A stretch of DNA of 64,000 bases from the NCBI GenBank assembly GCA_027923505.1, contig BROI01000017.1, positions 248,001-312,000 on the forward strand. The letters are read 5' to 3'. The DNA is from Mayamaea pseudoterrestris (taxonomy: Eukaryota). Below the pieces are notes generated by a model that was not told the origin of the DNA, made no database searches, and saw only the letters and a list, made by a program, of their open reading frames with translations. The translations under genes were made by a program, and so were the position numbers. The first letter of the stretch is position 1. Each line of letters opens with the position of its first letter. Shown here piece by piece: positions 1 through 14,870 of this stretch.

Positions 1-780
1 GGCATGCACCATGTACACATTGGCTGTCGCTGGACGTATTGGATCTTCCTGTGAGAGTATCGATGGTTCCGTCATGAACTGATAAAACTGATCGAGCTGG
101 TTTGACAACGAGGGAAACCTCATCATCTCTAATTTGTACGTGTTGGTTTTATTTCGTCGACGGACTGCGGCTGCCTGATTGACAACGACGGCTTTGTAGC
201 GTGGCTGCTGTCGCTCTGGAGAAATGTTTGTGTCTAACTCTCCTTTTGGGTCTTTTGTCGAACCAGTTTCCATGGCCTTCATCGTCGTATATTGCCGCGT
301 ACTTGTTGCCTGCTGCAATGGTTCCATGGGCAGCATTCTTTCCTCCGGTTCCTGTTCATGTCGCTCCAAAGCACTCATGACTACTGATCGTATCTGATTC
401 GCCATTAACGGATTGATTTGAAAGTCTCGTATGAGCATTTGCGAAACTTCGGCGGCATTCAAGCCTTGGCAGATGGCGAGCAAAGGACCAAATGAACCTT
501 GAACGGTGGTCGACGTTGATGAGTAGAGATTTAGAGCTTGGAGACTCTCTACAATAGTTACCTTTTCGTCTGCAGACCAATCATTTTGAATCAGTGCATC
601 ATAAAAAGGATCGGAGGCACTGGACAAGATGCAATTTGTTGATTGATGACGAAGAGAGCGTTTAGTAATTGGCGCTCCAAAACTTCTGTGGCTCGAATGA
701 CGAGCCTTGGTCGATATAGGCTGCAAATTCTTGAAAATTCGTGGAACTACAAACAATCCAATCCATAGCAACGGAATCAT
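1..780 (-). CDS. Uncharacterised protein, N-terminal part only (runs off the window start); possibly the algal family with a tyrosine-recombinase/integrase-like C-terminal region
   Basis: Hand translation of the minus strand from ATG 780 is open for 260 codons to base 1 (MIPLLWIGLFVV...LIRDFQINPLMANQIRSVVM...FYQFMTEPSILSQEDPIRPATANVYMVHA). It is absent from the ORF track because no stop lies in the window. The family guess is from memory of the FMTxPS..QExPIRxATAxVY motif only. Confidence 0.6.
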   Translation of the reverse strand, partial: MIPLLWIGLFVVPRIFKNLQPISTKARHSSHRSFGAPITKRSLRHQSTNCILSSASDPFYDALIQNDWSADEKVTIVESLQALNLYSSTSTTVQGSFGPLLAICQGLNAAEVSQMLIRDFQINPLMANQIRSVVMSALERHEQEPEERMLPMEPLQQATSTRQYTTMKAMETGSTKDPKGELDTNISPERQQPRYKAVVVNQAAAVRRRNKTNTYKLEMMRFPSLSNQLDQFYQFMTEPSILSQEDPIRPATANVYMVHA

Positions 781-1046: not shown

Positions 1047-2123
1047 ATGTCCTCGATGCTCCTCTCCTTTCGTGCTTCACGTCTACTAGTATTGAGTTTG
1101 CTTGGAACGTCTGCAACTCACCGTGTCGCTGCCGCCTTTGTCGTTCCAACAGTTTCTTCGGCGCTCGTCGGAAGCAGCAGCTTTTCTCGCTCGTATCCAT
1201 CATATTCCACTACATCAAGACTATTTTCTTCTCAAGAAAAGAAAGCAGAGGAACCGCAGCATACAATCAGTAGCGACAAGGAGCAAGAAATGTCAGTCGA
1301 ACTCTCGGAACTCCAAGCCGCCTACCAGACGCACCAACAAAACGCGCCCAGGCTCTCCCACGCGCAGGAGGTAAGAAGCCTTGTGGCGTACAATCACGGG
1401 TTTGCCGTACTGAGTACCTTTAGCAAGCACCATTCCGACTTTCCGGCGGGTGGCGTCGTGGCCTTTGCTCCCGATGAACAAGGAAGACCAATCATGGTCC
1501 TTTCCAACTTGAGCACGCACAAGCAAGACTTGAAAGTCAACAGCAAGTGTAGCTTGACAGTTGCTACCAAGGAATTCAAAGGATTGGCGGATGCCCGCGT
1601 CAATCTCATGGGGACTTGTCACGTTTTGGAGAGGGAAACGCCCGAGCACGCGCAAGCGAAGGAGTTTTTCCTCGCCAAGCATCCAGATAGTTTTTGGATC
1701 GAGTTTGGTGACTTTGATGTGATGCGAATGGATGTTGAACATGTTCGCTTCGTTGGAGGGTTTGCCCGCGTTGGAAGCATTTCTGCAGCCGACTATGCCA
1801 AGACGCAACCCGATTCCATTGCGGCGTTTGGCGGCCACGTGGCCAAGCACATGAACGACGATCACATGGAGGCAACCATTGCCATGGTGCAAGCCAATAT
1901 TCCAGGGATGAAAGATCCAAACAACAAGGTTACTTCTGCTGTCATTACATCGGTGGATTCCTTGGGCATGTACGTCAAGGTGACCCGCGAATCAGGCAGT
2001 GAACTGGGTCCGCAAACGTTCAAGGCCAGACTTCCGTTTCCTCGACAAGCCAAGGATCGAGGTGACGTCAAGGGTCTGATTGTTGAAATGACGCAGGCGT
2101 CTGCTCCGGCGGCAACGAGTTAG
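1047..2123 (+). CDS. Plastid-targeted HugZ/HOZ-like heme-binding protein (PNPOx-like split barrel + DUF2470)
   Basis: Signal peptide then AAA-FVVP cleavage motif and Ser-rich transit peptide. Motifs VLSTFS..FPAGGVVAFAPDEQGRPIMVLSNLSTHKQDL, LAKHPDSFWIEFGDF and HMNDDH closely parallel plant HOZ/GBP-type proteins. Confidence 0.8.
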   Translation: MSSMLLSFRASRLLVLSLLGTSATHRVAAAFVVPTVSSALVGSSSFSRSYPSYSTTSRLFSSQEKKAEEPQHTISSDKEQEMSVELSELQAAYQTHQQNAPRLSHAQEVRSLVAYNHGFAVLSTFSKHHSDFPAGGVVAFAPDEQGRPIMVLSNLSTHKQDLKVNSKCSLTVATKEFKGLADARVNLMGTCHVLERETPEHAQAKEFFLAKHPDSFWIEFGDFDVMRMDVEHVRFVGGFARVGSISAADYAKTQPDSIAAFGGHVAKHMNDDHMEATIAMVQANIPGMKDPNNKVTSAVITSVDSLGMYVKVTRESGSELGPQTFKARLPFPRQAKDRGDVKGLIVEMTQASAPAATS

Positions 2124-2264
2124 TGAGTTTATTTTAAGAAAGGAGGCTACAAGAGGCCACGCGTGAGCAAGCTAGGAAGCCAGCTTTAATTTACGACAAT
2201 GAAACGATCATCTGTTGCGGCTATTAACAAACTTATCTTCAATGAACAGCAATAAGTTCTATAT

Positions 2265-3119
2265 TTAGCTACCTCCTCCAACGTAGGCTTCTGCCGTCGG
2301 TCCAGTATTGACTGCAGCAACCGTCCGGCCCAAGTCATCTCCAAGCGCATTCACTTGCTCCTGCAGCTGCGCTCGAAAGTAGAATTGTCGCAGCTTGTCG
2401 TCACGCATGTTGAAGGATCCCCGAGATCGAGCTGGAATCTGTGGCGCCGATTCAATCCACGCAAGGAAGCGATTTACATGATCGCAAGCAAGTCGCTCGG
2501 CGGTGGATGCGTCCAAACCACCGACGGCGAAGCGTGCCGGTGAATGCAAAAGGCGATGCTCAAACTCGATTGGCGGTGACAAGGCCTGTCCAGAAGCGTG
2601 CGCCTGCTTCCAAGCTGCTTGCACGTTTTCATTGTAGTAGGTTTGCAAGTATTGCGGGTCAGCTCCCATTACGTTTGGTCCGCGCGGAACATAGTCGGCC
2701 GTGACGTGGTAGCCATTCGAGCCGCTCCCAAACGTTAGCAGACAATGAGGAACATCGTAGCTTGGTCCCATCCAAACGTTCAAGGTCAAGTCTTCCTGCT
2801 GGCCGTCTTGGCGTGTCAAGTAGCTGACGCCAGTCAAGAATTGAGGATTGGCTTCCGACAGCCAAGCGGCTGTTCCCGATGCTCCACTCGATGACGACCA
2901 ACTAGACGCTCCAAAGCTATCGGTAAAATCTGTTACTTGCAGTCCAAGCTTTTGTGTCACTTGGTTGCAGAGTGAATCATGCAGTGGTCGGAGCGACATT
3001 TGAAGTGATGAGCATGAGGGAGACAATGCTTGTAGTTGCTGTGAGTTGCGCCATGATGGCGCGACAAAGGCTGTCGACGCTGACAAGCAGCCGTAGAGGA
3101 TAGCCGATCGAAGTCCCAT
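2265..3119 (-). CDS. Plastid-targeted red chlorophyll catabolite reductase-like protein (ferredoxin-dependent bilin reductase fold)
   Basis: STA-FVAP targeting motif. LNVWMGPSYDVPH, DYVPRG...YLQTYY, R...SP and RDDKLR motifs are typical of the RCCR family. Confidence 0.7.
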   Translation of the reverse strand: MGLRSAILYGCLSASTAFVAPSWRNSQQLQALSPSCSSLQMSLRPLHDSLCNQVTQKLGLQVTDFTDSFGASSWSSSSGASGTAAWLSEANPQFLTGVSYLTRQDGQQEDLTLNVWMGPSYDVPHCLLTFGSGSNGYHVTADYVPRGPNVMGADPQYLQTYYNENVQAAWKQAHASGQALSPPIEFEHRLLHSPARFAVGGLDASTAERLACDHVNRFLAWIESAPQIPARSRGSFNMRDDKLRQFYFRAQLQEQVNALGDDLGRTVAAVNTGPTAEAYVGGGS

Positions 3120-3340
3120 GTTTTTATAGACTACAAGGATTGGACACTTGCAAGTGAAAGGATCTTTGCGCCATGGTGACTGACGTTTGTCGTCGCGAAA
3201 CTTTTGCTCGACGTGTCACGCTTTGTCGCACTGTAACCACTACGACATCCGTTTTCGACTGTGAATCGCGCCATTCCACAATTTCGTTGATGGCTCCAAT
3301 CACGTCATTGAGGTGAAATCTTTAAACATTTGCCATCATT

Positions 3341-4585
3341 ATGAAGCTTCGACATGTTTATACCTCTATCATCTCACTGGGAATTGTCAGAGTTGATGGA
3401 TTTGCGCCTTTTCTGCCGATGAAACAGCAGACGCGACAGTCAATCGGTGCCTTCCATCCTCTTCAAATTCAAGCACATCAAAGTGATCAGCATGCCGATC
3501 GGCATTCACCATTTACATTCAAACTTAAGCCAGTAACAGCAACATCAAGCCGACAATACAACAAACATGGATTAGCGAGTACATTTCTCGCATTGTCTCT
3601 CATTTTCTCCTCCATCTTGTCGCCATTTCCAAGCTTTGCCGAAGAGCAACAGTATGATGGCTTTGCCAATTACGCCAAGGATAATCAAATGGAACAATCC
3701 GATGTTTCCTGCTTTGTCAAAAAGTGCGGAGATCAAACTCAGAAACTCTTTGCCAATCCGCGAGGTATCAAAGGTGTCGTTTGCCTCGGCAAGTGCAAGG
3801 GTGAGCAGTCATGCGCGACGCGCTGCTTCGCCGAGTATGGATCGGAACCACTCAACGACTGGTTGTCTTGTACGATTGAGGAAAACGAATGCGTCAAAGT
3901 GCCCAAAAACTTGGATAATTCCGCCGCAGACAAGGGATATCCAACGGCGATTCAAAATTTTGATCCAAAGTCATTGGTTGGCACTTGGTACAAGACGGAC
4001 GGTCTCAATCCAAACTATGACTTGTTTGACTGTCAATCGAACACGTTTCAACAAACGTCACCGAATGAACTTGACATGGGAATATTCTTTCGCGTCAAGC
4101 GACCAGCTGAATCTGGTGGAGGCTTCTGGGAGAATGCGCTTACGGAACACATGGTTGTGGACGAACCTTCCTCTGATCCGACAGTTTCGACAATGCATAC
4201 GTCGGGCAAAATGTACGGACTCACGTTTCAAGAGAATTGGTACATTTTGGGTGAATCAGATGGAAGTAAGGGAATTCCGCCATATAAGCTAGTTGCGTAC
4301 AAGGGCCACACGCTGCAGGGCAACTACGAGGGAGCCTTTGTCTATGCTAAGGAACGCATTCTCCCAGCTGCCGCCGTGCCGTCCGTCAAGGAAGCGGCAG
4401 CCAAGGCAGGCTTGGACTTTGACAAGTTTACGCGCATTGACAATACATGTCCCACGGGCAATGTATTGAATGACGCGCAAGCTGGAACTGGAACGTCGGG
4501 TACCGACTGGTTCGACTTGGTGGTTGGTGATGGCGGAGTATTGGAGTGGATATCACCAGGATGGAGAGGCGATTACAAAAAGTAA
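3341..4585 (+). CDS. VDL: Violaxanthin de-epoxidase-like protein (Cys-rich domain + lipocalin), plastid/thylakoid-lumen targeted
   Basis: VDG-FAP signal/transit, then a second hydrophobic lumenal signal ending PSFA-EE. Cys-rich block CFVKKC...CLGKCKGEQSCATRCFAEYGSEPLNDWLSCTIEENECV; lipocalin GTWYKTDGLNPNYDLFDCQ; YEGAFVY. No Glu-rich VDE tail. Whether it is VDL1 or VDL2 is not resolved. Confidence 0.85.
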   Translation: MKLRHVYTSIISLGIVRVDGFAPFLPMKQQTRQSIGAFHPLQIQAHQSDQHADRHSPFTFKLKPVTATSSRQYNKHGLASTFLALSLIFSSILSPFPSFAEEQQYDGFANYAKDNQMEQSDVSCFVKKCGDQTQKLFANPRGIKGVVCLGKCKGEQSCATRCFAEYGSEPLNDWLSCTIEENECVKVPKNLDNSAADKGYPTAIQNFDPKSLVGTWYKTDGLNPNYDLFDCQSNTFQQTSPNELDMGIFFRVKRPAESGGGFWENALTEHMVVDEPSSDPTVSTMHTSGKMYGLTFQENWYILGESDGSKGIPPYKLVAYKGHTLQGNYEGAFVYAKERILPAAAVPSVKEAAAKAGLDFDKFTRIDNTCPTGNVLNDAQAGTGTSGTDWFDLVVGDGGVLEWISPGWRGDYKK

Positions 4586-6738: not shown

Positions 6739-8145
6739 ATGCTAACCAAGCCAGCCATGATGCGTAGTCGCTCGCATACATCGTCCGACGCTTGCAGCAG
6801 TCGGTCGAAACTCTTCCTTCCAGATCACCACGACGCAATCACCAAGGACGTTGCAGCGGGATGCGCAGTTACCATTGACGCTTTTTCCTACCAAAGCGAC
6901 GACGAGCCGCTTCGTGTCGTTCCATTTTTCGAGATTCAATCTCCGCTGGAAAAGAAGCGACGATTGGGACGCTACATTCGCAATGCTCATTCCTCGCGCG
7001 CCACGGCGAGCTATTCGCAGACTCCTTCCGAAAGTCGCTCACTGCGATTGCTACAATGGAGTTGCTTATTTCCCAGAGAAATCTGTTTCGAATTAGATCA
7101 AGAATGCCTATCTGGTGATTTGATTCTTTTTGACCCGACCGAGCCGCTACTCTACGGAGAATTGGACGGACGTCAAGATCCTATCCTTGTGCAAGCAGCG
7201 CATCTTTTCCATGTACTGCTTGAGGAGCATCGCTACATTTGCATGGCGCGCCGGGAAGCTGACGATGAAGACTTGAATGCTGCTGTTGACGAGACTCTTG
7301 GTTGCATAATAGCCTTGCTGCGCGAGTGTCCGTGCGTGGCGCAAGTTCTTTATCCGCTTCCGAGCGAGTTTTGGATGGATAAGAATGAATGCTTCTGCTT
7401 TCCGCTGGTTCATTTTTGCGTCACCAACTGTCTTGCAGGACTCTCGGCATGCTATCACGCCTTTCCAGAAGCAATAGGGTGTACAGTGCACGGTTGGCTG
7501 CCCCTTCACTTTGCTGCGAAACATTCCACTTATTCAGTTGTCCAGTTTTTGCTTGAAAGGTTTCCCAATGCCGCTCGTCGGACACACACTCGGACGCACA
7601 AGACGCCACTGCACATTGCCTGTCAGCGACATGATCCGAATGCCAAGAGTAGTATTATTCGAAGAATCATGCAGCAGTATCCAACGGCGCTTCAGCTTGC
7701 CGATCGACATGGCTGGGTTCCGGTGCATCATTTATGCGCATGCAAGTCGACTGATGTCTACTTGCTGCAAATGGTAATTGAAGCCAGTCCAACAACGATA
7801 CGAGCAACGACGCGTCAATTGGAGCTACCCTTACATATTTTTTGCCGCCAAGGATCTGCGCGAATCGATTCGATGCACTATTTGCTCAACTCGGTGCATG
7901 CTCCTTCGTTGCAAGCTAATGCAACGGATCTGGACCAAAATAACATTTTACACTGCATTGCGAATAACTCGAGTGCAACCGCTGATGCTGTAAAATATCT
8001 TCTTGCTGCGACTGCAAAAGGTAGATTTGGTCGAGAAAAGCTGTTGGAATGTCTAAATATGGACGGCGACAGGCCAATTGACATTGCCAAGAGGATGCCT
8101 ACTGGCGATGCAAAGTCAAACATTGATCAACTCTTAAGCACTTGA
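6739..8145 (+). CDS. Ankyrin-repeat protein
   Basis: Repeated GWLPLHFAA, KTPLHIAC, GWVPVHHLC, LPLHIFC, NNILHCIA and GDRPIDIA motifs. Confidence 0.85.
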   Translation: MLTKPAMMRSRSHTSSDACSSRSKLFLPDHHDAITKDVAAGCAVTIDAFSYQSDDEPLRVVPFFEIQSPLEKKRRLGRYIRNAHSSRATASYSQTPSESRSLRLLQWSCLFPREICFELDQECLSGDLILFDPTEPLLYGELDGRQDPILVQAAHLFHVLLEEHRYICMARREADDEDLNAAVDETLGCIIALLRECPCVAQVLYPLPSEFWMDKNECFCFPLVHFCVTNCLAGLSACYHAFPEAIGCTVHGWLPLHFAAKHSTYSVVQFLLERFPNAARRTHTRTHKTPLHIACQRHDPNAKSSIIRRIMQQYPTALQLADRHGWVPVHHLCACKSTDVYLLQMVIEASPTTIRATTRQLELPLHIFCRQGSARIDSMHYLLNSVHAPSLQANATDLDQNNILHCIANNSSATADAVKYLLAATAKGRFGREKLLECLNMDGDRPIDIAKRMPTGDAKSNIDQLLST

Positions 8146-8378
8146 GTACAATCATCTTCTGTGCGATTATGTGATGCAATAGACGGCCACCTGCCACAAT
8201 CGCATTAATGGTGACATATACATATGCACTATTAGCTCTACCTATTATGCAATTATTTTATGAACTTAAAAAGATTTATGATTGTCGTACGGTACGATTC
8301 TGCCTATTTCGTAGCTGCATCGCTGCCCAGCTATGCTGCTTCCAGCGTCAGCGGCAAAGGAATCGGCACGCACCATGA

Positions 8379-10028
8379 TTATTGAGTTGGCTCATCTTTT
8401 ACGGCTCCATCTGTCATGGACGCCTGAGCTGAAAAGGCAGATGGAGCAGAGAGCTCCGGTGCGCGAAAATTAAAAAGGCTTACACTGGAGCATATAGCTC
8501 CGTCGGGAGTTTCAGCCGATACAGCGGACACCAAATTGTAATCGCGAGGAATGGTAAGATCGACAGTGATGTCGAAGTTATATGCAGTAGCTTGCCCAAT
8601 TTGCAGGTCATCTCCAGCGACAATGTCGGTCAAGTTGAAAGTCCTAATGTTGCTCTGTGTAGCCAAACTCACTAGCTCCACGTTTGATGCGCTCGTCGTC
8701 GGCACTCTGACTTGCTGCATTACTGTCAAATCCTCAAAGGCGTTCGTTGCAGCTCCATTGATAGTAAATCCAATCACTTGAGATGCGCCAAATTGTGATT
8801 TAAGCCGCAGCGGCTCCGAGCAGTCGCCTACGTACACTAACGACTGGAGCACATTGCCTGGCGACACGTCATCCGATCGGTAGATGACAATGCTTTGTGA
8901 CGAACCCAGCGTTCCTCCGTTTGGATTTTGAATGATAAAATCTTGTCCTACTCGCACAAATCCACTGAAATACACTATCTGCCGAAACTGAACCATGACG
9001 TAGACCCGTGTACCGGGCGCTCGAGATATCGTACCAAAATCAAAGCAGACAAAGTCTTGAGGCGTCTGCGAATCAGCACAGGTGCCACCTTCAAGTCGCA
9101 TGACAATCTGCGTTGGCGTGTCGGAGCAGACTGGACTGATAATCGGCAAACTCTCGCACTCTTCACATCGAGTATCCAATTCAATTTCACAGGTGGCAGC
9201 CGCTGTTGGAGATCTGAATGGTCGATCTGTCGGAACTTCCGTTGAACGCCGCGTCGGACGAGAAGTCACTGGGCCCACAGTTGGTCGCTTTGTCGCTGGC
9301 GGCACGGTTGGCCTGCTAGTGGGTCTTTTAGTTTGTGTCACAGGCGTAAAAGACGGTGATCGCGTTGGCAGTGCTGATATAGGAGTAGGTGATGGTGTAC
9401 TGGTCGGAGGTTGAAATATCACTGGGGCACCCGTTTTCGAAACTCTCGATGGGCTGCCAGTCGCAGGAGCATCGGATGGCCGTCTATTTGGACTGACAGA
9501 CGGAATCTGGCCCGGCTTTGCTGATGGGGCAATGCTTGTCGGAGTTTTCGTTCTGGGAGAATTTGTTGGCCTGTTCGTCCGAGGGGGAGTCGTCGGACGA
9601 GGCGTCACACGCGGTCGGCTTGGTCGCTTCGTGGGCGGAGCATTTGTCGGTTCCATTGTCGGAAAAGATGTTGGTAAGTAGGAGGGTCTACCTGATTGTG
9701 GTGCTTCTGTTTGTTTTGTCGGAGCAACTGTCTTAATTGGTCTAGGCGTTGGTCGAGGAGTCGGCCGCTTCGTTCTTCGTTTTGCCGATGGAGCGCTCGT
9801 CGGCATAGACATTGATTCTACACCCAATAGATTGGTGATAGGATTTATGAACGCTTCCAACGAGTCGTCAAATACAGGAGCTATCAGCTCTTGGTGGACT
9901 CGCAAGTTCCGTTGGCGTCGCATTCTACCTGAAAACGTGAGTTGTTCTTCCGCTGTCACACTCTCCCCTCGGACGACTGCTGCAATCGCAGCGTCGCAAA
10001 TTAGAAATGTAAGGAAGTGTAGTTTCAT
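8379..10028 (-). CDS. Secreted Pro/Thr/Arg-rich (mucin-like) protein with a C-terminal Cys-containing diatom-type domain
   Basis: Likely start MKLHFLTFLICDAAIAAVVRG (signal peptide), followed by RRQRNL and SMSM motifs and many TKRP/TPRP/TxxP repeats. Then a globular domain PTQIVMRLEGGTC...CFDFG...DCSEPLRLKSQFGASQVIGF. Confidence 0.8.
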   Translation of the reverse strand: MKLHFLTFLICDAAIAAVVRGESVTAEEQLTFSGRMRRQRNLRVHQELIAPVFDDSLEAFINPITNLLGVESMSMPTSAPSAKRRTKRPTPRPTPRPIKTVAPTKQTEAPQSGRPSYLPTSFPTMEPTNAPPTKRPSRPRVTPRPTTPPRTNRPTNSPRTKTPTSIAPSAKPGQIPSVSPNRRPSDAPATGSPSRVSKTGAPVIFQPPTSTPSPTPISALPTRSPSFTPVTQTKRPTSRPTVPPATKRPTVGPVTSRPTRRSTEVPTDRPFRSPTAAATCEIELDTRCEECESLPIISPVCSDTPTQIVMRLEGGTCADSQTPQDFVCFDFGTISRAPGTRVYVMVQFRQIVYFSGFVRVGQDFIIQNPNGGTLGSSQSIVIYRSDDVSPGNVLQSLVYVGDCSEPLRLKSQFGASQVIGFTINGAATNAFEDLTVMQQVRVPTTSASNVELVSLATQSNIRTFNLTDIVAGDDLQIGQATAYNFDITVDLTIPRDYNLVSAVSAETPDGAICSSVSLFNFRAPELSAPSAFSAQASMTDGAVKDEPTQ

Positions 10029-10352
10029 GGTAAATTTTGGATGTCCATTTGCTGTCAGCGGAATGCTTGCTGTATTCACAGTTGTTTCCTTGCTGCTGGA
10101 TCCGTGGAACATGAGCAAGCGCGAGAGGTGCGCCATGTCGGGTGGAGGCTCGCCAAAACGTTTTTAAATTTAGTCTTGCACCTTCTGGCTGCCGTGCTCT
10201 GTAAAAACTAGCTATCTGCATCTTGTACCGTCAAGTTGAAAAGTCCGACGACGAGCAGTCGCGCGCTGGTTGGCACCCTTTATTCTCGAGTAATAAACAT
10301 CGAATCAATAATCTGACTAGTAGAAACGATACTTCAATATATGTTTCATCGT

Positions 10353-11601
10353 CGATTGTCAATGGGAAGCAAATCCACCGTGGGATGGCACGTGGACGAT
10401 TTGAAGATTTCGCGTCGACGTGAGCGTAGTGGATGAGTTCATCGCGCAGATGGATGAGGAGTTTGGCAAGGAGACTCAATGAATGAAGTCACGCGGAAAA
10501 GTGCACGACACCTCGGCATGGTATTGGACTATACTAAGCCTGGAGAAGTAGCAATCAACATAGTTGACTATGCTGAAGAACATCCTGCATCATGCGCCAG
10601 ACGACATGGATGGAACGGCAGCTACTCCGGCAGCCAAGTCACTTGTTTCAGATATCGGAAAATCCTGTCGCAAGAAGCGAAGAAGCAGATTTTTGTGACG
10701 ATTGCATGCAGTGTCTGTATCTGAGTTCAGCGAGCGCGACCGGATATTCGCACAGCGATTTCTTTCTGAGACGAGGCTGCAGCAGCCTGACGAAGACGAC
10801 TATAAGAAGGCTGCAAGAGTGATTAAATATTTACGCGGAAGCGTGGACATGGTGTTGACGCTGAAGGCGGACCAGTCCCGATAGTCCAGTGGTGGGTGGA
10901 TGCGTCAAAATGCGCCCGGTGCACCCAGACATGAAGGGTCACACTGGTGGGAACAAGCTGACACCTGGCCAAGGATCAGTGTACAGTACGTCGGCTAAAC
11001 AGAAGTTGGTAACAAGAAGCTCGACGGAGAGCGAAGTTGTGGGAGTTCATGATGTGCTACCGCAGTTGCTGTGGACAGGATATTTTCTGAAGGCGCAAGG
11101 TTTCGGGGTCAAAGACACGAAATTGTATCAAGACAATATGAGTTCAATGCTGTTGGAAAAGAATGGCAGAAGCTCAAGTACAAAGCGCACGCGACACATG
11201 AATGTTCGGTACTTCTTTGTGAAAGATCGCGTGGCAGCTGGTGAAGTCAACATTGAGCATTGTCCGACCGGAGACATGGTCGCGGATTTCTTCACGAAAC
11301 CATTGCAGGGAGCCCAGGTTGGGAATCGCCGCAACCTGGTTATGAATCTGGCCTCGAGCAATAAGTACCACTACTCGGCCCAAAGGGAGTGTGTTGAGCA
11401 TGGATGAGAAACCCAAACCGAAAGCGGCAGCGGTGACGTCACGAAGACACGTCGCATTTAAGCGCGGTAAGCGGCAACCGAAGGAGTGGATCGAGGACGA
11501 TCACTTCTTGGAGAAAATAAGTAAAGTGGTTTTATTGACTCTGTTCTGCTTAATCATTAGTGTCGCTTCAAGGGCGCGCAAGATATATTCTAGATCCAAC
11601 A
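10353..11601 (+). mobile_element. 5'-truncated Ty1/Copia (CoDi-type) LTR retrotransposon: RT C-terminus, RNase H, PPT, 3' LTR
   Basis: WHVDDLKIS at ~10386; HLGMVLDYTKPGEV; DDYKK..RVIKYLRG; HPDMKGHTGG, KQKLVTRSSTESEVVG, YQDN, RHMNVRYFF, ADFFTKPLQG. Frameshifted. Purine-rich aaagggagtg precedes the LTR. Confidence 0.92.
11392..11601 (+). repeat. 3' long terminal repeat (210 bp, TGTTG...CAACA)
   Basis: Begins TGTTG immediately after the PPT and ends CAACA exactly where duplication copy 2 begins. Confidence 0.8.
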
Positions 11602-11694: not shown

Positions 11695-13184
11695 ATGCTA
11701 ACCAAGCCAGCCATGATGCGTAGTCGCTCGCATACATCGTCCGACGCTTGCAGCAGTCGGTCGAAACTCTTCCTTCCAGATCACCACGACGCAATCACCA
11801 AGGACGTTGCAGCGGGATGCGCCGTTACCATTGACGCTTTTTCCTACCAAAGCGACGACGAGCCGCTTCGTGTCGTTCCGTTTTTCGAGATTCAATCTCC
11901 GCTGGAAAAGAAGCGACGATTGGGACGCTATATTCGCAACGCTCATTCTTCGCGCGCCACGGCGAGCTATTCGCAGACTCCTTCCGAAAGTCGCTCACTA
12001 CGATTGCTACAATGGAGTTGCTTATTTCCAAGGGAAGTTTGCTTTGAATTGGATCAAGACTGCCTACCTGGTGACTTGATACTTTTTGACCCGACCGAGC
12101 CGCTAATCTACGGAGAATTGGACGGACGTCAAGATCCTATCCTTGTGCAAGCAGCGCATCTTTTCCATGTACTGCTTGAGGAGCATCGCTACATTTGCAT
12201 GGCGCGCCGGGAAGCTGACGATGAAGACTTGAATGCTGCTGTTGACGAGACTCTTGGTTGCATAATAGCCTTGCTGCGCGAGTGTCCGTGCGTGGCGCAA
12301 GTTCATTATCCGCTCCCTAGCGAGTTTTGGATGGACAAGAATGAATGCTACTGCTTTCCGCTGGTTCATTTTTGCGTCACCAACTGTCTTGAAGGGCTCT
12401 CGGCATGCTATCACGCCTTTCCAGAAGCAATAGGGTGTACAGTGCACGGTTGGCTGCCCCTTCACTTTGCTGCGAAACATTCCACTTATTCAGTTGTCCA
12501 GTTTTTGCTTGAAAGGTTTCCCAATGCCGCTCGTCGTACACACACTCGGACGCACAAGACGCCACTGCACATTGCCTGTCAGCGACATGATCCGAATGCC
12601 AAGAGTAGTATTATTCGAAGAATCATGCAGCAGTATCCAACGGCGCTTCAGCTCGCCGATCGACATGGCTGGGTTCCGGTGCATCATTTATGCGCATGCA
12701 AGTCGACTGATGTCTACTTGCTGCAAATGGTAATTGAAGCCAGTCCAACAACGATACGAGCCACGACGCGTCATTGGAGCTACCTACATATTTTTTGCCG
12801 CCAAGGATCTGCGCGACGGATCAAATGCATCATTGAAATGGCACGACCTATTCCCGCCAAGGTTCTGCGCGAATCGATTCGATGCATTATTTGCTCAACT
12901 CGGTGCATGCTCATTCGTTGCAAGCTAATGCGACGGATCTGGACCAAAATAACATTCTCCACTGCATTGCGAATAACTCGAGTGCAACCGCTGATGCTGT
13001 AATATATCTTCTTGCTGCGACTGCAAAAGGTAGATTTGGTCGAGAAAAGCTGTTGGAATGTCTAAATATGGACGGCGACAGGCCGATTGACATTGCCAAG
13101 AGGATGCCTACTGGCGATGAAAAGTCAAACATTGATCAACTCTTAACAGTACAATCATCTTCTTGCGATAATGTGATGCAATAG
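11695..13184 (+). pseudogene. Ankyrin-repeat protein copy 2, frameshifted (pseudogene or consensus error)
   Basis: Nearly identical to 6739-8145 up to RATTR, then a frameshift. The C-terminal part resumes in ORF 12882-13184. Confidence 0.75.
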
Positions 13185-13247
13185 CACGGCCACCTGCCAC
13201 AATCGCATTAATGGTGACAAATATGCACTGCTCTACCTATTACATGA

Positions 13248-14870
13248 CTAAAGATTTATGATTGTCGTAGTACGATACTGCATTGAGATATCAAGCTTTG
13301 TGAGTAACTTGTGACCGCTGCGCCTCGCGAAGCAGAAGTAAAGCTCATGGAGATTGCAGCCGACAGCGGACACCAAATTGTAATCACGAGGAATGGTAAG
13401 ATCGACAGTAATGTCGAAGTTATATGCAGTAGCTTGTCCAATTTGCAGGTCATCTCCAGCGACAATGTCGGTCAAGTTGAAGGTCCTAATGTTGCTCTGT
13501 GTAGCCAGACTCACTAGCTCCACATTTGACGCGCTCGTCGTCGGCACTCTGACTCGCTGCATCACTGTCAAATCCTCAAAGGCGTTCGTTGCATCTCCAT
13601 TGATAGTAAATCCAATCACTTGAGATGCGCCAAATTGCGATTTCAGTCGTAGAGGCTCCGAGCAGTCGCCTACGTATACTAACGACTGGAGCACATTGCC
13701 TGGCGACACGTCATCCGATCGGTAGATGACAATGCTTTGTGACGAACCCAGCGTTCCTCCGTTTGGACTTTGAATGATAAAATCTTGTCCTACTCGCACA
13801 AATCCACTGAAATACACTGTCTGCCGAAACTGAACCATGACGTAGACCCGTGTACCAGGCGCTCGAGATATCGTACCAAAATCAAAGCAGACAAAGTCTT
13901 GAGGCGTCTGCGAATCAGCACAGGTGCCACCTTCAAGTCGCATGACAATCTGCGTTGGCGTGTCAGAGCAGACTGGATTGATAATGGGCAAACTCTCGCA
14001 CTCTTCACATCGAGTATCCAATTCAATTTCACAGGTGGCAGCCGCTGTTGGAGATCTGAATGGTTGATCTGTCGGAACTTCCGTTGGACGCAGCGTTGGA
14101 CGAGAAGTCCCTGGACCCATAGTTGGTCGCTTTGTCGCTGGCGGCTCTGTTGGCCTACTAGTGGGTCTTTTAGTTTGTGTCACAGGCGTAAAAGACGGTG
14201 ATCGCGTCGGTAGTGCTGACATTGGAGTAGATGATGGTGTACTGGTTGGAGGTTGAAGTATCATTGGAGCACCCGTTTTCGGAACTCTCGATGGGCTGCC
14301 AGTCGTAGGAGCATCGGATGGCCGTCTATTTGGACTGACAGAAGGATTCTGGACCGGCTTTGCTGATGGGACGATGTTTGTCGGAATTTTCGTTCTTGGA
14401 GAATTTGTTGGTCTGTTCGTCCGAGGCGGATTCGTCGGTCGAGGCGTCACACGCGGTCGTCTTGGTCGTTTCGTACGCGGAGCATTTGTCAGTTCCTTTG
14501 TCGGAGAGGATGATGGTAAGTAGGAAGGCTTACTTGATTGTGGTGCTTCTGTTTGTTTTGTCGGAGCAATTGTCTTAATTGGTCTAGATGTTGGTCGAGG
14601 AGTTGGCCGCTTTGTTCTTCGTTTTGCCGATGGAGCGCTCGTCGGCATAGACATTGATTCTCCACCCAATAGATTGGTGCTAGGATCTATGAACGCTTCC
14701 AACGAGCCGTCAAGTACAGGAGCTATCAGCTCTTGGTGGACTCGCAAGTTCCGTTGGCGTCGCATTCTACCTGAAAACATGAGTTGTTCTTCCGCTGTCA
14801 CACTCTCCCCTCGGACGACTGCTGCAATCGCAGCATCGCTAATTAGAAATGTAAGGAAGTGTAGTTTCAT
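13248..14870 (-). CDS. Pro/Thr-rich secreted protein copy 2 with altered C-terminus
   Basis: Same architecture as 8379-10028. It diverges after YNLVSAV because the 3' end is replaced. Confidence 0.7.
   Translation of the reverse strand: MKLHFLTFLISDAAIAAVVRGESVTAEEQLMFSGRMRRQRNLRVHQELIAPVLDGSLEAFIDPSTNLLGGESMSMPTSAPSAKRRTKRPTPRPTSRPIKTIAPTKQTEAPQSSKPSYLPSSSPTKELTNAPRTKRPRRPRVTPRPTNPPRTNRPTNSPRTKIPTNIVPSAKPVQNPSVSPNRRPSDAPTTGSPSRVPKTGAPMILQPPTSTPSSTPMSALPTRSPSFTPVTQTKRPTSRPTEPPATKRPTMGPGTSRPTLRPTEVPTDQPFRSPTAAATCEIELDTRCEECESLPIINPVCSDTPTQIVMRLEGGTCADSQTPQDFVCFDFGTISRAPGTRVYVMVQFRQTVYFSGFVRVGQDFIIQSPNGGTLGSSQSIVIYRSDDVSPGNVLQSLVYVGDCSEPLRLKSQFGASQVIGFTINGDATNAFEDLTVMQRVRVPTTSASNVELVSLATQSNIRTFNLTDIVAGDDLQIGQATAYNFDITVDLTIPRDYNLVSAVGCNLHELYFCFARRSGHKLLTKLDISMQYRTTTIINL

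What the first reader, a model, noticed from the sequence alone, without database searches (positions are those of the whole stretch)
1047..4585. Candidate plastid tetrapyrrole/pigment cluster: HOZ-type heme-degrading protein next to a bilin-reductase-family enzyme and a VDL
Seen: three adjacent genes all carry plastid presequences. HOZ-like and RCCR-like are tail-to-tail (141 bp gap); RCCR-like and VDL are head-to-head (221 bp gap). Established: HugZ/HOZ proteins bind or degrade heme to biliverdin, RCCR belongs to the ferredoxin-dependent bilin reductase family, and VDL enzymes act in neoxanthin/fucoxanthin synthesis. Bacteria and cyanophages pair heme oxygenase with a bilin reductase, and diatoms are known to link xanthophyll genes (VDE/VDL with ZEP). 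Inference: this could be a non-canonical ring-opening plus bilin-reducing module co-regulated with carotenoid synthesis. It might suggest a role for diatom RCCR-like proteins, whose substrate I do not know to be defined.
Basis: partly seen in the sequence, partly recalled or inferred. Interest (0 to 1): 0.72.

Follow-up and report, generated by a model that had tools for sequence, protein, structure and literature searches.

The report
Diatom pigment genes: inherited neighbours
Three real chloroplast pigment-related genes sit side by side in this diatom, most likely because of inherited gene order rather than a shared pathway; the odd part is the middle gene, an unstudied relative of the plant chlorophyll-breakdown reductase that lacks the usual catalytic acids.

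Summary
The three ORFs and both gaps (141, 221 bp) are as described. They encode a HOZ1 orthologue (E 5e-49 to Arabidopsis HOZ; heme histidines kept), a VDL1 orthologue (violaxanthin to neoxanthin), and a protein with the bilin-reductase fold on the RCCR branch (best Z 23.7, to RCCR). It has Thr and Gln where RCCR and PEBB carry their two active-site acids, and an algal C-terminal GPxxEAYVGGGS tail. The linkage is older than this genome but is not a dedicated module. In Phaeodactylum, HOZ and VDL1 lie 6 kb apart, separated by three unrelated genes, in a 47-kb block that also holds this locus's housekeeping neighbours; they fall in different co-expression modules, and its only annotated RCCR-like gene is another subfamily on another chromosome. 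HOZ and VDL1 are unlinked in Fistulifera; 0 of 28 metagenome loci of the RCCR-like gene show either neighbour. Contig-length coincidences suggest partial linkage in about six other assemblies. The genome has canonical heme oxygenases and bilin reductases elsewhere. Verdict: shuffled ancestral synteny, with one uncharacterised RCCR-like enzyme worth assaying.

The parts
1047..2123 (+). HOZ1 orthologue: split beta-barrel (PF13883) plus DRI/DUF2470 domain; bipartite presequence by eye; H158 equals AtHOZ1 His135 / poplar His90; DRI histidines H268 and H273
   Evidence: single match in genome
2124..2264 (.). 141-bp tail-to-tail gap
2265..3119 (-). RCCR-branch protein of algal subfamily A; FDBR/RCCR fold; T129 and Q251 at the two acid columns; H/N125; invariant D142, R146, R189, S193-P194, R239-D240-D241-K242
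   Evidence: single match in genome
2268..2303 (-). Conserved C-terminal tail GPTAEAYVGGGS, shared by algal subfamilies A and B and, as a variant, by part of C; absent from the 10 presumed bacterial relatives examined
3120..3340 (.). 221-bp head-to-head gap, possible shared promoter; TGACGT at 3181-3186 (+) and 3302-3307 (-), a motif also found in 4 of 4 other head-to-head gaps checked
3341..4585 (+). VDL1 orthologue (Cys-rich domain plus lipocalin PF07137); a second hydrophobic stretch suggests thylakoid-lumen targeting (by eye)
1..780 (-). 5' part of a 618-aa tyrosine-recombinase-like ORF, head-to-head with HOZ at 266 bp; control showing the same geometry with an unrelated gene
   Evidence: Atlas 0.97; no Pfam or PDB hit

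Best explanation
Three independent plastid genes of a pennate-type diatom lie together because they belong to an ancestral chromosome block that has been locally shuffled, not because they form one pathway. HOZ1 binds heme in the stroma and probably degrades it. VDL1 isomerises violaxanthin to neoxanthin, probably in the thylakoid lumen. The middle protein is an algal RCCR-branch protein. SHOWN: its fold, branch, purifying selection, loss of both canonical acid residues, and conserved tail. INFERRED: it binds an open-chain tetrapyrrole in the FDBR pocket. My split for its function: chlorophyll-derived linear tetrapyrrole (RCC-type) made by a PAO-like Rieske oxygenase and reduced with ferredoxin through non-canonical proton donors (H/N125, D142, or tail E277) about 45%; non-catalytic bilin binder, carrier or sensor about 30%; reductase of heme-derived biliverdin about 15%; other about 10%.
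For: Phaeodactylum chr_9 holds RGS-kinase (406,260), an integrase-family gene (409,690), glyoxalase I (429,353), VDL1 (433,920), HOZ (441,585) and TM9SF (450,736) within 46.7 kb. G000 holds the same gene set within 14.2 kb in a different order; three of the housekeeping orthologies match in sequence by eye. In Phaeodactylum a DNA methylase, a CRAL/TRIO gene and a PP2C lie between VDL1 and HOZ. Co-expression modules differ: VDL1 blue, HOZ orange. The one Phaeodactylum gene annotated RCC-reductase (J41038) is on chr_27 and is subfamily B. Fistulifera HOZ and VDL1 carry different chromosome tags, FisN_27 and FisN_17. 0 of 28 metagenome loci carry HOZ or VDL; 18 of the 28 have at least 1.2 kb downstream and 9 at least 1.5 kb upstream. 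Canonical heme oxygenases (2 matches), FDBRs (3) and PaO-domain genes (6) lie elsewhere. Phaeodactylum releases linear tri- and tetrapyrroles resembling chlorophyll catabolites (PMC11970420 passages).
Against: Exact longest-contig lengths shared between homologue lists (contigs of at least 2.5 kb): RCCR-like/HOZ 4 (null mean 0.19), RCCR-like/VDL 2 (0.17), VDL/HOZ 2 (0.38). Three of these contigs are only 4.3, 4.7 and 8.3 kb, and the pair at 4,748 bp falls outside the raphid-side clade in both trees, so tight pairing may be old. The Phaeodactylum genes between VDL1 and HOZ are not near this locus in G000 (DNA methylase 0 of 3 matches on C17, CRAL/TRIO 0 of 11, PP2C 1 of 27, about 100 kb away). 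Diatoms do keep pigment-gene pairs: VDE-ZEP, VDL2-ZEP1 and an FDBR pair occur in this genome. A triple of pigment genes is expected only 0.002-0.012 times per genome under independent placement, with assumed class frequencies and a class chosen after the fact. No co-expression data exist for a species with all three genes.
Confidence: 0.65

Rival explanations
1. A selectively kept, co-regulated plastid pigment cluster with no substrate hand-off: the RCCR-like gene and VDL1 share a bidirectional light-responsive promoter, as described for VDE/ZEP3 and VDL2/ZEP1.
For: Head-to-head at 221 bp with two TGACGT motifs (their reading as aureochrome/bZIP sites is recalled). Contig-length matches. Published precedent: VDL2/ZEP1 conserved in 5 and VDE/ZEP3 in 4 of 8 other diatoms (PMC9499517). 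The subfamily-B gene J41038 shares the merged 'blue' module with VDL1.
Against: TGACGT is in 4 of 4 other head-to-head gaps checked. 'Blue' is one of the largest modules, a general chloroplast one, and the unmerged clusters differ (darkorange versus blue). L016, 64% identical, has another gene head-to-head and a trypsin-like protease downstream. HOZ itself is head-to-head with a recombinase-like gene.
Confidence: 0.22
2. First reader's module: HOZ opens heme to a non-alpha biliverdin and the RCCR-like protein reduces it with ferredoxin.
For: RCCR-like/HOZ is the most frequent contig-length match (4, versus null 0.19). HOZ-family proteins make biliverdin in vitro, and HugZ/HutZ give delta or beta isomers (PMC11602992 passages). 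The fold binds bilins. Tomato HY2 is active with Asn at the first acid column, so one missing acid does not exclude catalysis.
Against: Both acid columns are non-acidic here (T129, Q251). Across 66 relatives column 1 is T/S in 52 and E in 5; column 2 is Q in 30 and E in 25. Known biliverdin reductases form a clade apart from the RCCR branch (PMC10151467). HOZ is common (367 hits) while subfamily A is patchy (77 hits), and none of its hits is named from the reference diatoms seen in the HOZ and VDL lists. 0 of 18 loci with downstream flank hold HOZ.
Confidence: 0.08

Closest known systems
Red chlorophyll catabolite reductase (Arabidopsis RCCR/ACD2, PDB 2zxk/3agb; Pfam PF06405)
   Same: Fold (Z 23.7, rmsd 2.7 A, 234 aligned); best profile match (E 3e-21); shared D-x-x-x-R, YY, R-x-x-x-SP and RD-x-x-x-R motifs; plastid presequence
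   Different: 13-16% identity; below the Pfam cut-off; Thr and Gln at the Glu154 and Asp291 columns; His for RCCR Asn151; extra conserved C-terminal tail; substrate untested
Ferredoxin-dependent bilin reductases (PEBB, HY2, PebA, PcyA; PF05996)
   Same: Fold (Z 19.9-22.3)
   Different: Weaker profile match (E 1e-4 and 7e-3); no PF05996 hit; PEBB has Asp at both acid columns; three true members are encoded elsewhere in the genome
HOZ1 (AT3G03890, PDB 6m09; poplar HOZ1, 9bl1)
   Same: Both domains, full-length match (E 5e-49), His135 equivalent and DRI histidines kept
   Different: This copy departs from the consensus of its homologues at 16 of 122 conserved columns (median 2); activity untested in diatoms
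VDL1 (Phaeodactylum J36048/46155)
   Same: 71% identity to a protein named VDL1; Cys-rich region matches J36048 by eye; the other paralogues map to VDE, VDL2 and a VDR-like gene
   Different: Nothing notable found
Diatom VDE/ZEP3 and VDL2/ZEP1 gene pairs (PMC2483416, PMC9499517)
   Same: Head-to-head plastid pigment genes in compact diatom genomes
   Different: Those pairs act on the same carotenoid pathway and are co-induced; here the partners act on different pigment classes, and their orthologues are not in one module
Heme oxygenase plus FDBR pairs of bacteria and cyanophages (recalled)
   Same: A ring-opening enzyme next to an FDBR-fold protein
   Different: Non-canonical split-barrel protein, RCCR-branch partner without the acids, and no consistent linkage

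Membership tests
HOZ1 subfamily | split beta-barrel followed by DRI/DUF2470 domain, closest to HOZ1 | tested here: met
HOZ1 subfamily | heme-propionate His (At His135) and two DRI histidines | tested here: met
   H158, H268, H273
HOZ1 subfamily | heme degradation to biliverdin | not testable with these tools
   needs an assay
VDL1 | Cys-rich domain plus VDE lipocalin, no Glu-rich tail, orthology to VDL1 rather than VDE, VDL2 or VDR | tested here: met
   (best-hit and paralogue mapping; no VDE-family tree built)
FDBR/RCCR/CPO fold | alpha/beta/alpha sandwich of bilin reductases | tested here: met
   model pLDDT 87
RCCR branch (homology) | closer to RCCR than to FDBRs by profile | tested here: met
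   E 3e-21 versus 1e-4; relatives grade into above-cut-off PF06405 hits
RCCR (enzyme) | acids at the Glu154 and Asp291 columns (catalytic role recalled from the RCCR structure papers, not retrieved) | tested here: not met
   T129 and Q251; numbering checked against the F218V mutant chain
RCCR (enzyme) | Pfam PF06405 above the curated cut-off | tested here: not met
   13.9 bits versus 24.9
RCCR (enzyme) | ferredoxin-dependent reduction of RCC to pFCC | not testable with these tools
   needs an assay
biliverdin-reducing FDBR | PF05996 membership and active-site acid(s) | tested here: not met
functional gene cluster | linkage conserved beyond background synteny | tested here: inconclusive
   the one annotated comparison shows housekeeping neighbours equally linked; indirect matches in about 6 assemblies; 0 of 28 direct loci
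functional gene cluster | co-expression of members | tested here: not met
   HOZ and VDL1 orthologues only, in Phaeodactylum; not testable for subfamily A

The most novel reading that the evidence does not exclude
Algae with red-lineage plastids have an unstudied RCCR-branch enzyme family that replaced the canonical acids with a His and a C-terminal EAYVGGGS tail closing the pocket. In pennate diatoms subfamily A is kept beside HOZ because it reduces or carries HOZ's non-alpha biliverdin, a second bilin route independent of heme oxygenase and PEBA/PEBB, expressed with VDL1 from a shared promoter.
Probability: 0.1. Interest if true: 0.75.

Novelty: new variant of a known kind. Interest (0 to 1): 0.32.

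Why it matters
The cluster itself is probably ordinary diatom gene order and a caution that plastid genes sharing a theme can be neighbours by descent. The RCCR-like family is the useful lead. Diatoms release chlorophyll-catabolite-like linear tetrapyrroles (PMC11970420), and my searches found no characterised diatom enzyme for their reduction. A Phaeodactylum paralogue (J41038) makes the question testable by knockout. A working reductase without both acids would also extend the bilin-reductase mechanism.

Tried and rejected
Expression: no RNA holder was listed. The four runs laid are contigs of unrecorded kind from one study and say nothing on expression; of the 12 indels shown (47 in all), 10 are intergenic and 2 are in-frame in the VDL1 presequence. 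Neighbourhoods of presumed bacterial RCCR-like genes: the alignment was too divergent for the scan and one single-protein scan found nothing, so this is untested. Earlier scan findings: none. The Atlas gave only sub-0.9 FDBR/RCCR leads. Idea that the middle gene is the unknown neoxanthin-to-diadinoxanthin enzyme: rejected, because subfamily A was not found in Phaeodactylum, which makes diadinoxanthin, and the fold binds tetrapyrroles. Tight spacing and TGACGT motifs as cluster evidence: rejected (47 window matches versus 35.7 expected). Contig-length matching has false positives: P0459 shares length 9,337 with L030's contig but is not in it, and matches under 2.5 kb were set aside as chance. 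Literature searches that found no paper on this cluster or on diatom RCCR-like function: (open-access library only).
Full report
Observation. The window is G000:C17:248,001-312,000 of a 30.6-Mb genome; its homologues point to a pennate-type diatom. All three begin with a hydrophobic signal followed by Phe at the likely cleavage site. This was judged by eye and with a small script, not with ASAFind.

Gene 1 is HOZ1. It matches Arabidopsis HOZ (6m09) at E 5e-49 and poplar HOZ1 at 1e-45 over both domains. H158 aligns with At His135 / poplar His90, which contact the heme propionates, and the two DRI histidines are kept (PMC11602992 passages). That paper says plant HOZ degrades heme to biliverdin in vitro and that its biological role is unknown. 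This copy is the most divergent of 120 homologues at conserved columns (16 of 122, median 2), a trait shared with its two nearest relatives.

Gene 3 is VDL1. The genome has four VDE-family genes (5 matches). Two sit head-to-head with zeaxanthin-epoxidase-like ORFs (named by eye), as VDE/ZEP3 and VDL2/ZEP1 do in Phaeodactylum (PMC2483416 passages). The window gene is 71% identical to a protein named VDL1 and scores about 110 bits against the two ZEP-linked paralogues, versus 500 against VDL1. VDL1 converts violaxanthin to neoxanthin (PMC9499517 passages).

Gene 2 is on the RCCR branch but is not a canonical RCCR. Alone it scores below the Pfam cut-off. The model (pLDDT 87) matches RCCR best (Z 23.7), tied or nearly tied with PEBB and HY2 (22.3, 21.9). 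A 27-sequence profile prefers RCCR (E 3e-21) to PEBB (1e-4). Published trees place RCCRs and related sequences as the outgroup to all known bilin reductases (PMC10151467 and PMC13193486 passages). At the columns of RCCR Glu154 and Asp291, where PEBB also has Asp, the protein has T129 and Q251. Among 66 relatives the first column is T/S in 52 and E in 5; the second is Q in 30 and E in 25. The catalytic role of the RCCR pair is recalled, since I could not retrieve the structure papers; the role of PcyA Asp105, and the 10% residual activity of D105N, are from PMC9800206 passages. HY2 has Asn at the first column, so catalysis is not excluded. The gene is under purifying selection (pS 0.74-0.83, pN 0.25-0.37 against 5 loci). 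It has invariant D142, R189, S193-P194 and R239-D240-D241-K242, and ends in a conserved GPxxEAYVGGGS tail. A quick tree of 44 selected proteins separates subfamily A (this gene; named members Corethron, Dactyliosolen, Triparma), subfamily B (Emiliania, and by eye Phaeodactylum J41038), a looser group with Porphyridium and Chrysoparadoxa, and 10 unnamed, presumably bacterial proteins without the tail. G000 has A only (these searches give lower bounds).

Is the linkage conserved? Partly. Longest-contig lengths of at least 2.5 kb coincide exactly between the homologue lists more often than in offset controls: RCCR-like/HOZ 4 (null mean 0.19), RCCR-like/VDL 2 (0.17), VDL/HOZ 2 (0.38), on six contigs, one of which carries all three (72, 115 and 116 rows with lengths; only the best 120 of 319 VDL and 367 HOZ hits were listed). 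This is indirect, and one such coincidence that I could test was false. Direct evidence points the other way: none of 28 metagenome loci of subfamily A matches any of 120 HOZ or 120 VDL queries; 18 have at least 1.2 kb downstream and 9 at least 1.5 kb upstream. Most of these loci are distant relatives, but seven with downstream flank have best hits on the diatom side, including L016 at 64% identity, which has other neighbours on both sides. In Fistulifera the HOZ and VDL1 locus tags name different chromosomes.

The control. Supplement rows of PMC5859163 place Phaeodactylum VDL1 at chr_9:433,920-435,485 and HOZ at 441,585-443,388, with a DNA methylase, a CRAL/TRIO gene and a PP2C between them. 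The same 46.7-kb stretch holds an RGS-kinase, an integrase-family gene, glyoxalase I and a TM9SF gene. These are four of the five genes directly upstream of the window in G000. Three orthologies match in sequence by eye, the recombinase only by class, and the fifth gene was not tested. So the HOZ-VDL1 proximity is part of a shuffled ancestral block shared with unrelated genes. The chr_9 list I saw is incomplete, and the 443-449 kb gap was not searched for an unannotated gene. The only Phaeodactylum gene annotated as RCC reductase is on chr_27. In PhaeoNet (PMC7596299, supplement rows and passages; its Table 2 was cut in storage) VDL1 is in module blue and HOZ in orange. J41038 is in merged blue, a large chloroplast module, from a different unmerged cluster. 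Against my reading, the three Phaeodactylum genes between VDL1 and HOZ are not near this locus in G000, and a triple of pigment genes is rare under independent placement with assumed frequencies.

Pathway context. The genome already has two heme-oxygenase matches and three FDBR genes, two of them as a tail-to-tail pair, so ordinary bilin synthesis needs no HOZ route. It also has six PaO-domain matches (not resolved to true PAO). In plants RCCR follows PAO (PMC8219035 passages), and Phaeodactylum releases linear tetrapyrroles resembling chlorophyll catabolites, although that paper notes similar fragments for heme bilins (PMC11970420 passages). I therefore favour a chlorophyll-catabolite role (about 45%) over a non-catalytic binder (30%) or a biliverdin reductase (15%). 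All three are inference.

Verdict. Observation confirmed; interpretation partly supported. Best explanation: inherited, shuffled synteny (0.65). Rivals: co-regulated cluster (0.22), HOZ-to-reductase pathway (0.08). Ten searches of the open-access library found no description of this cluster or of diatom RCCR-like function; subscription papers and supplements I did not open may bear on this. The uncharacterised, acid-less, tail-bearing RCCR branch is a new variant of a known kind. Interest 0.32.

Noticed in passing
L053:1748-6106 (G000 C1, minus strand): One 1,452-aa ORF joins a ferredoxin-dependent bilin reductase domain (E 1e-34) to four RRM domains and a long coiled coil; a real fusion or two genes read through, not checked.
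   Followed up: partly
L043:1135-3583 (G000 C5): Two canonical FDBR genes tail-to-tail, 229 bp apart; a similar adjacent pair is on Phaeodactylum chr_4 (J10830, J33770).
   Followed up: partly
window 1047-2123: HOZ has diverged faster than any of 119 homologues at conserved columns, several of the changes next to H158; its two closest relatives share the trait.
   Followed up: partly
window 1-780 continuing into L009:8924-10000: 618-aa tyrosine-recombinase-like gene; an integrase-family gene lies in the matching Phaeodactylum block, which suggests a long-resident, possibly domesticated gene.
   Followed up: partly
window 6739-10136 and 11695-14870: Tandem duplication (92-98% identical pieces) of an ankyrin gene plus a DUF7467 gene. 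An ORF at 10910-11407 between the copies looks by eye like a copia-type RNase H fragment.
   Followed up: partly
P0458: A 602-aa protein of unknown origin fuses an alpha/beta hydrolase (named dienelactone hydrolase) to an RCCR-like domain, as might suit chlorophyll catabolism.
   Followed up: no
P0459, P0462 and L072 (G000 C20:426,632-426,853): Some subfamily-B proteins carry an extra N-terminal segment that G000 encodes as a separate short frame, without the RCCR-like part.
   Followed up: no
PDB 8xks_P / 8xqw_H: An FDBR-fold protein is a subunit of the Chlamydomonas Ycf2-FtsHi import motor (Z 18.1), a precedent for a structural role of this fold.
   Followed up: no
window 2337-2370: In all four runs a contig matches only this 34-bp stretch and continues with other sequence on both sides; unexplained, possibly a chance or repeat match.
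   Followed up: no
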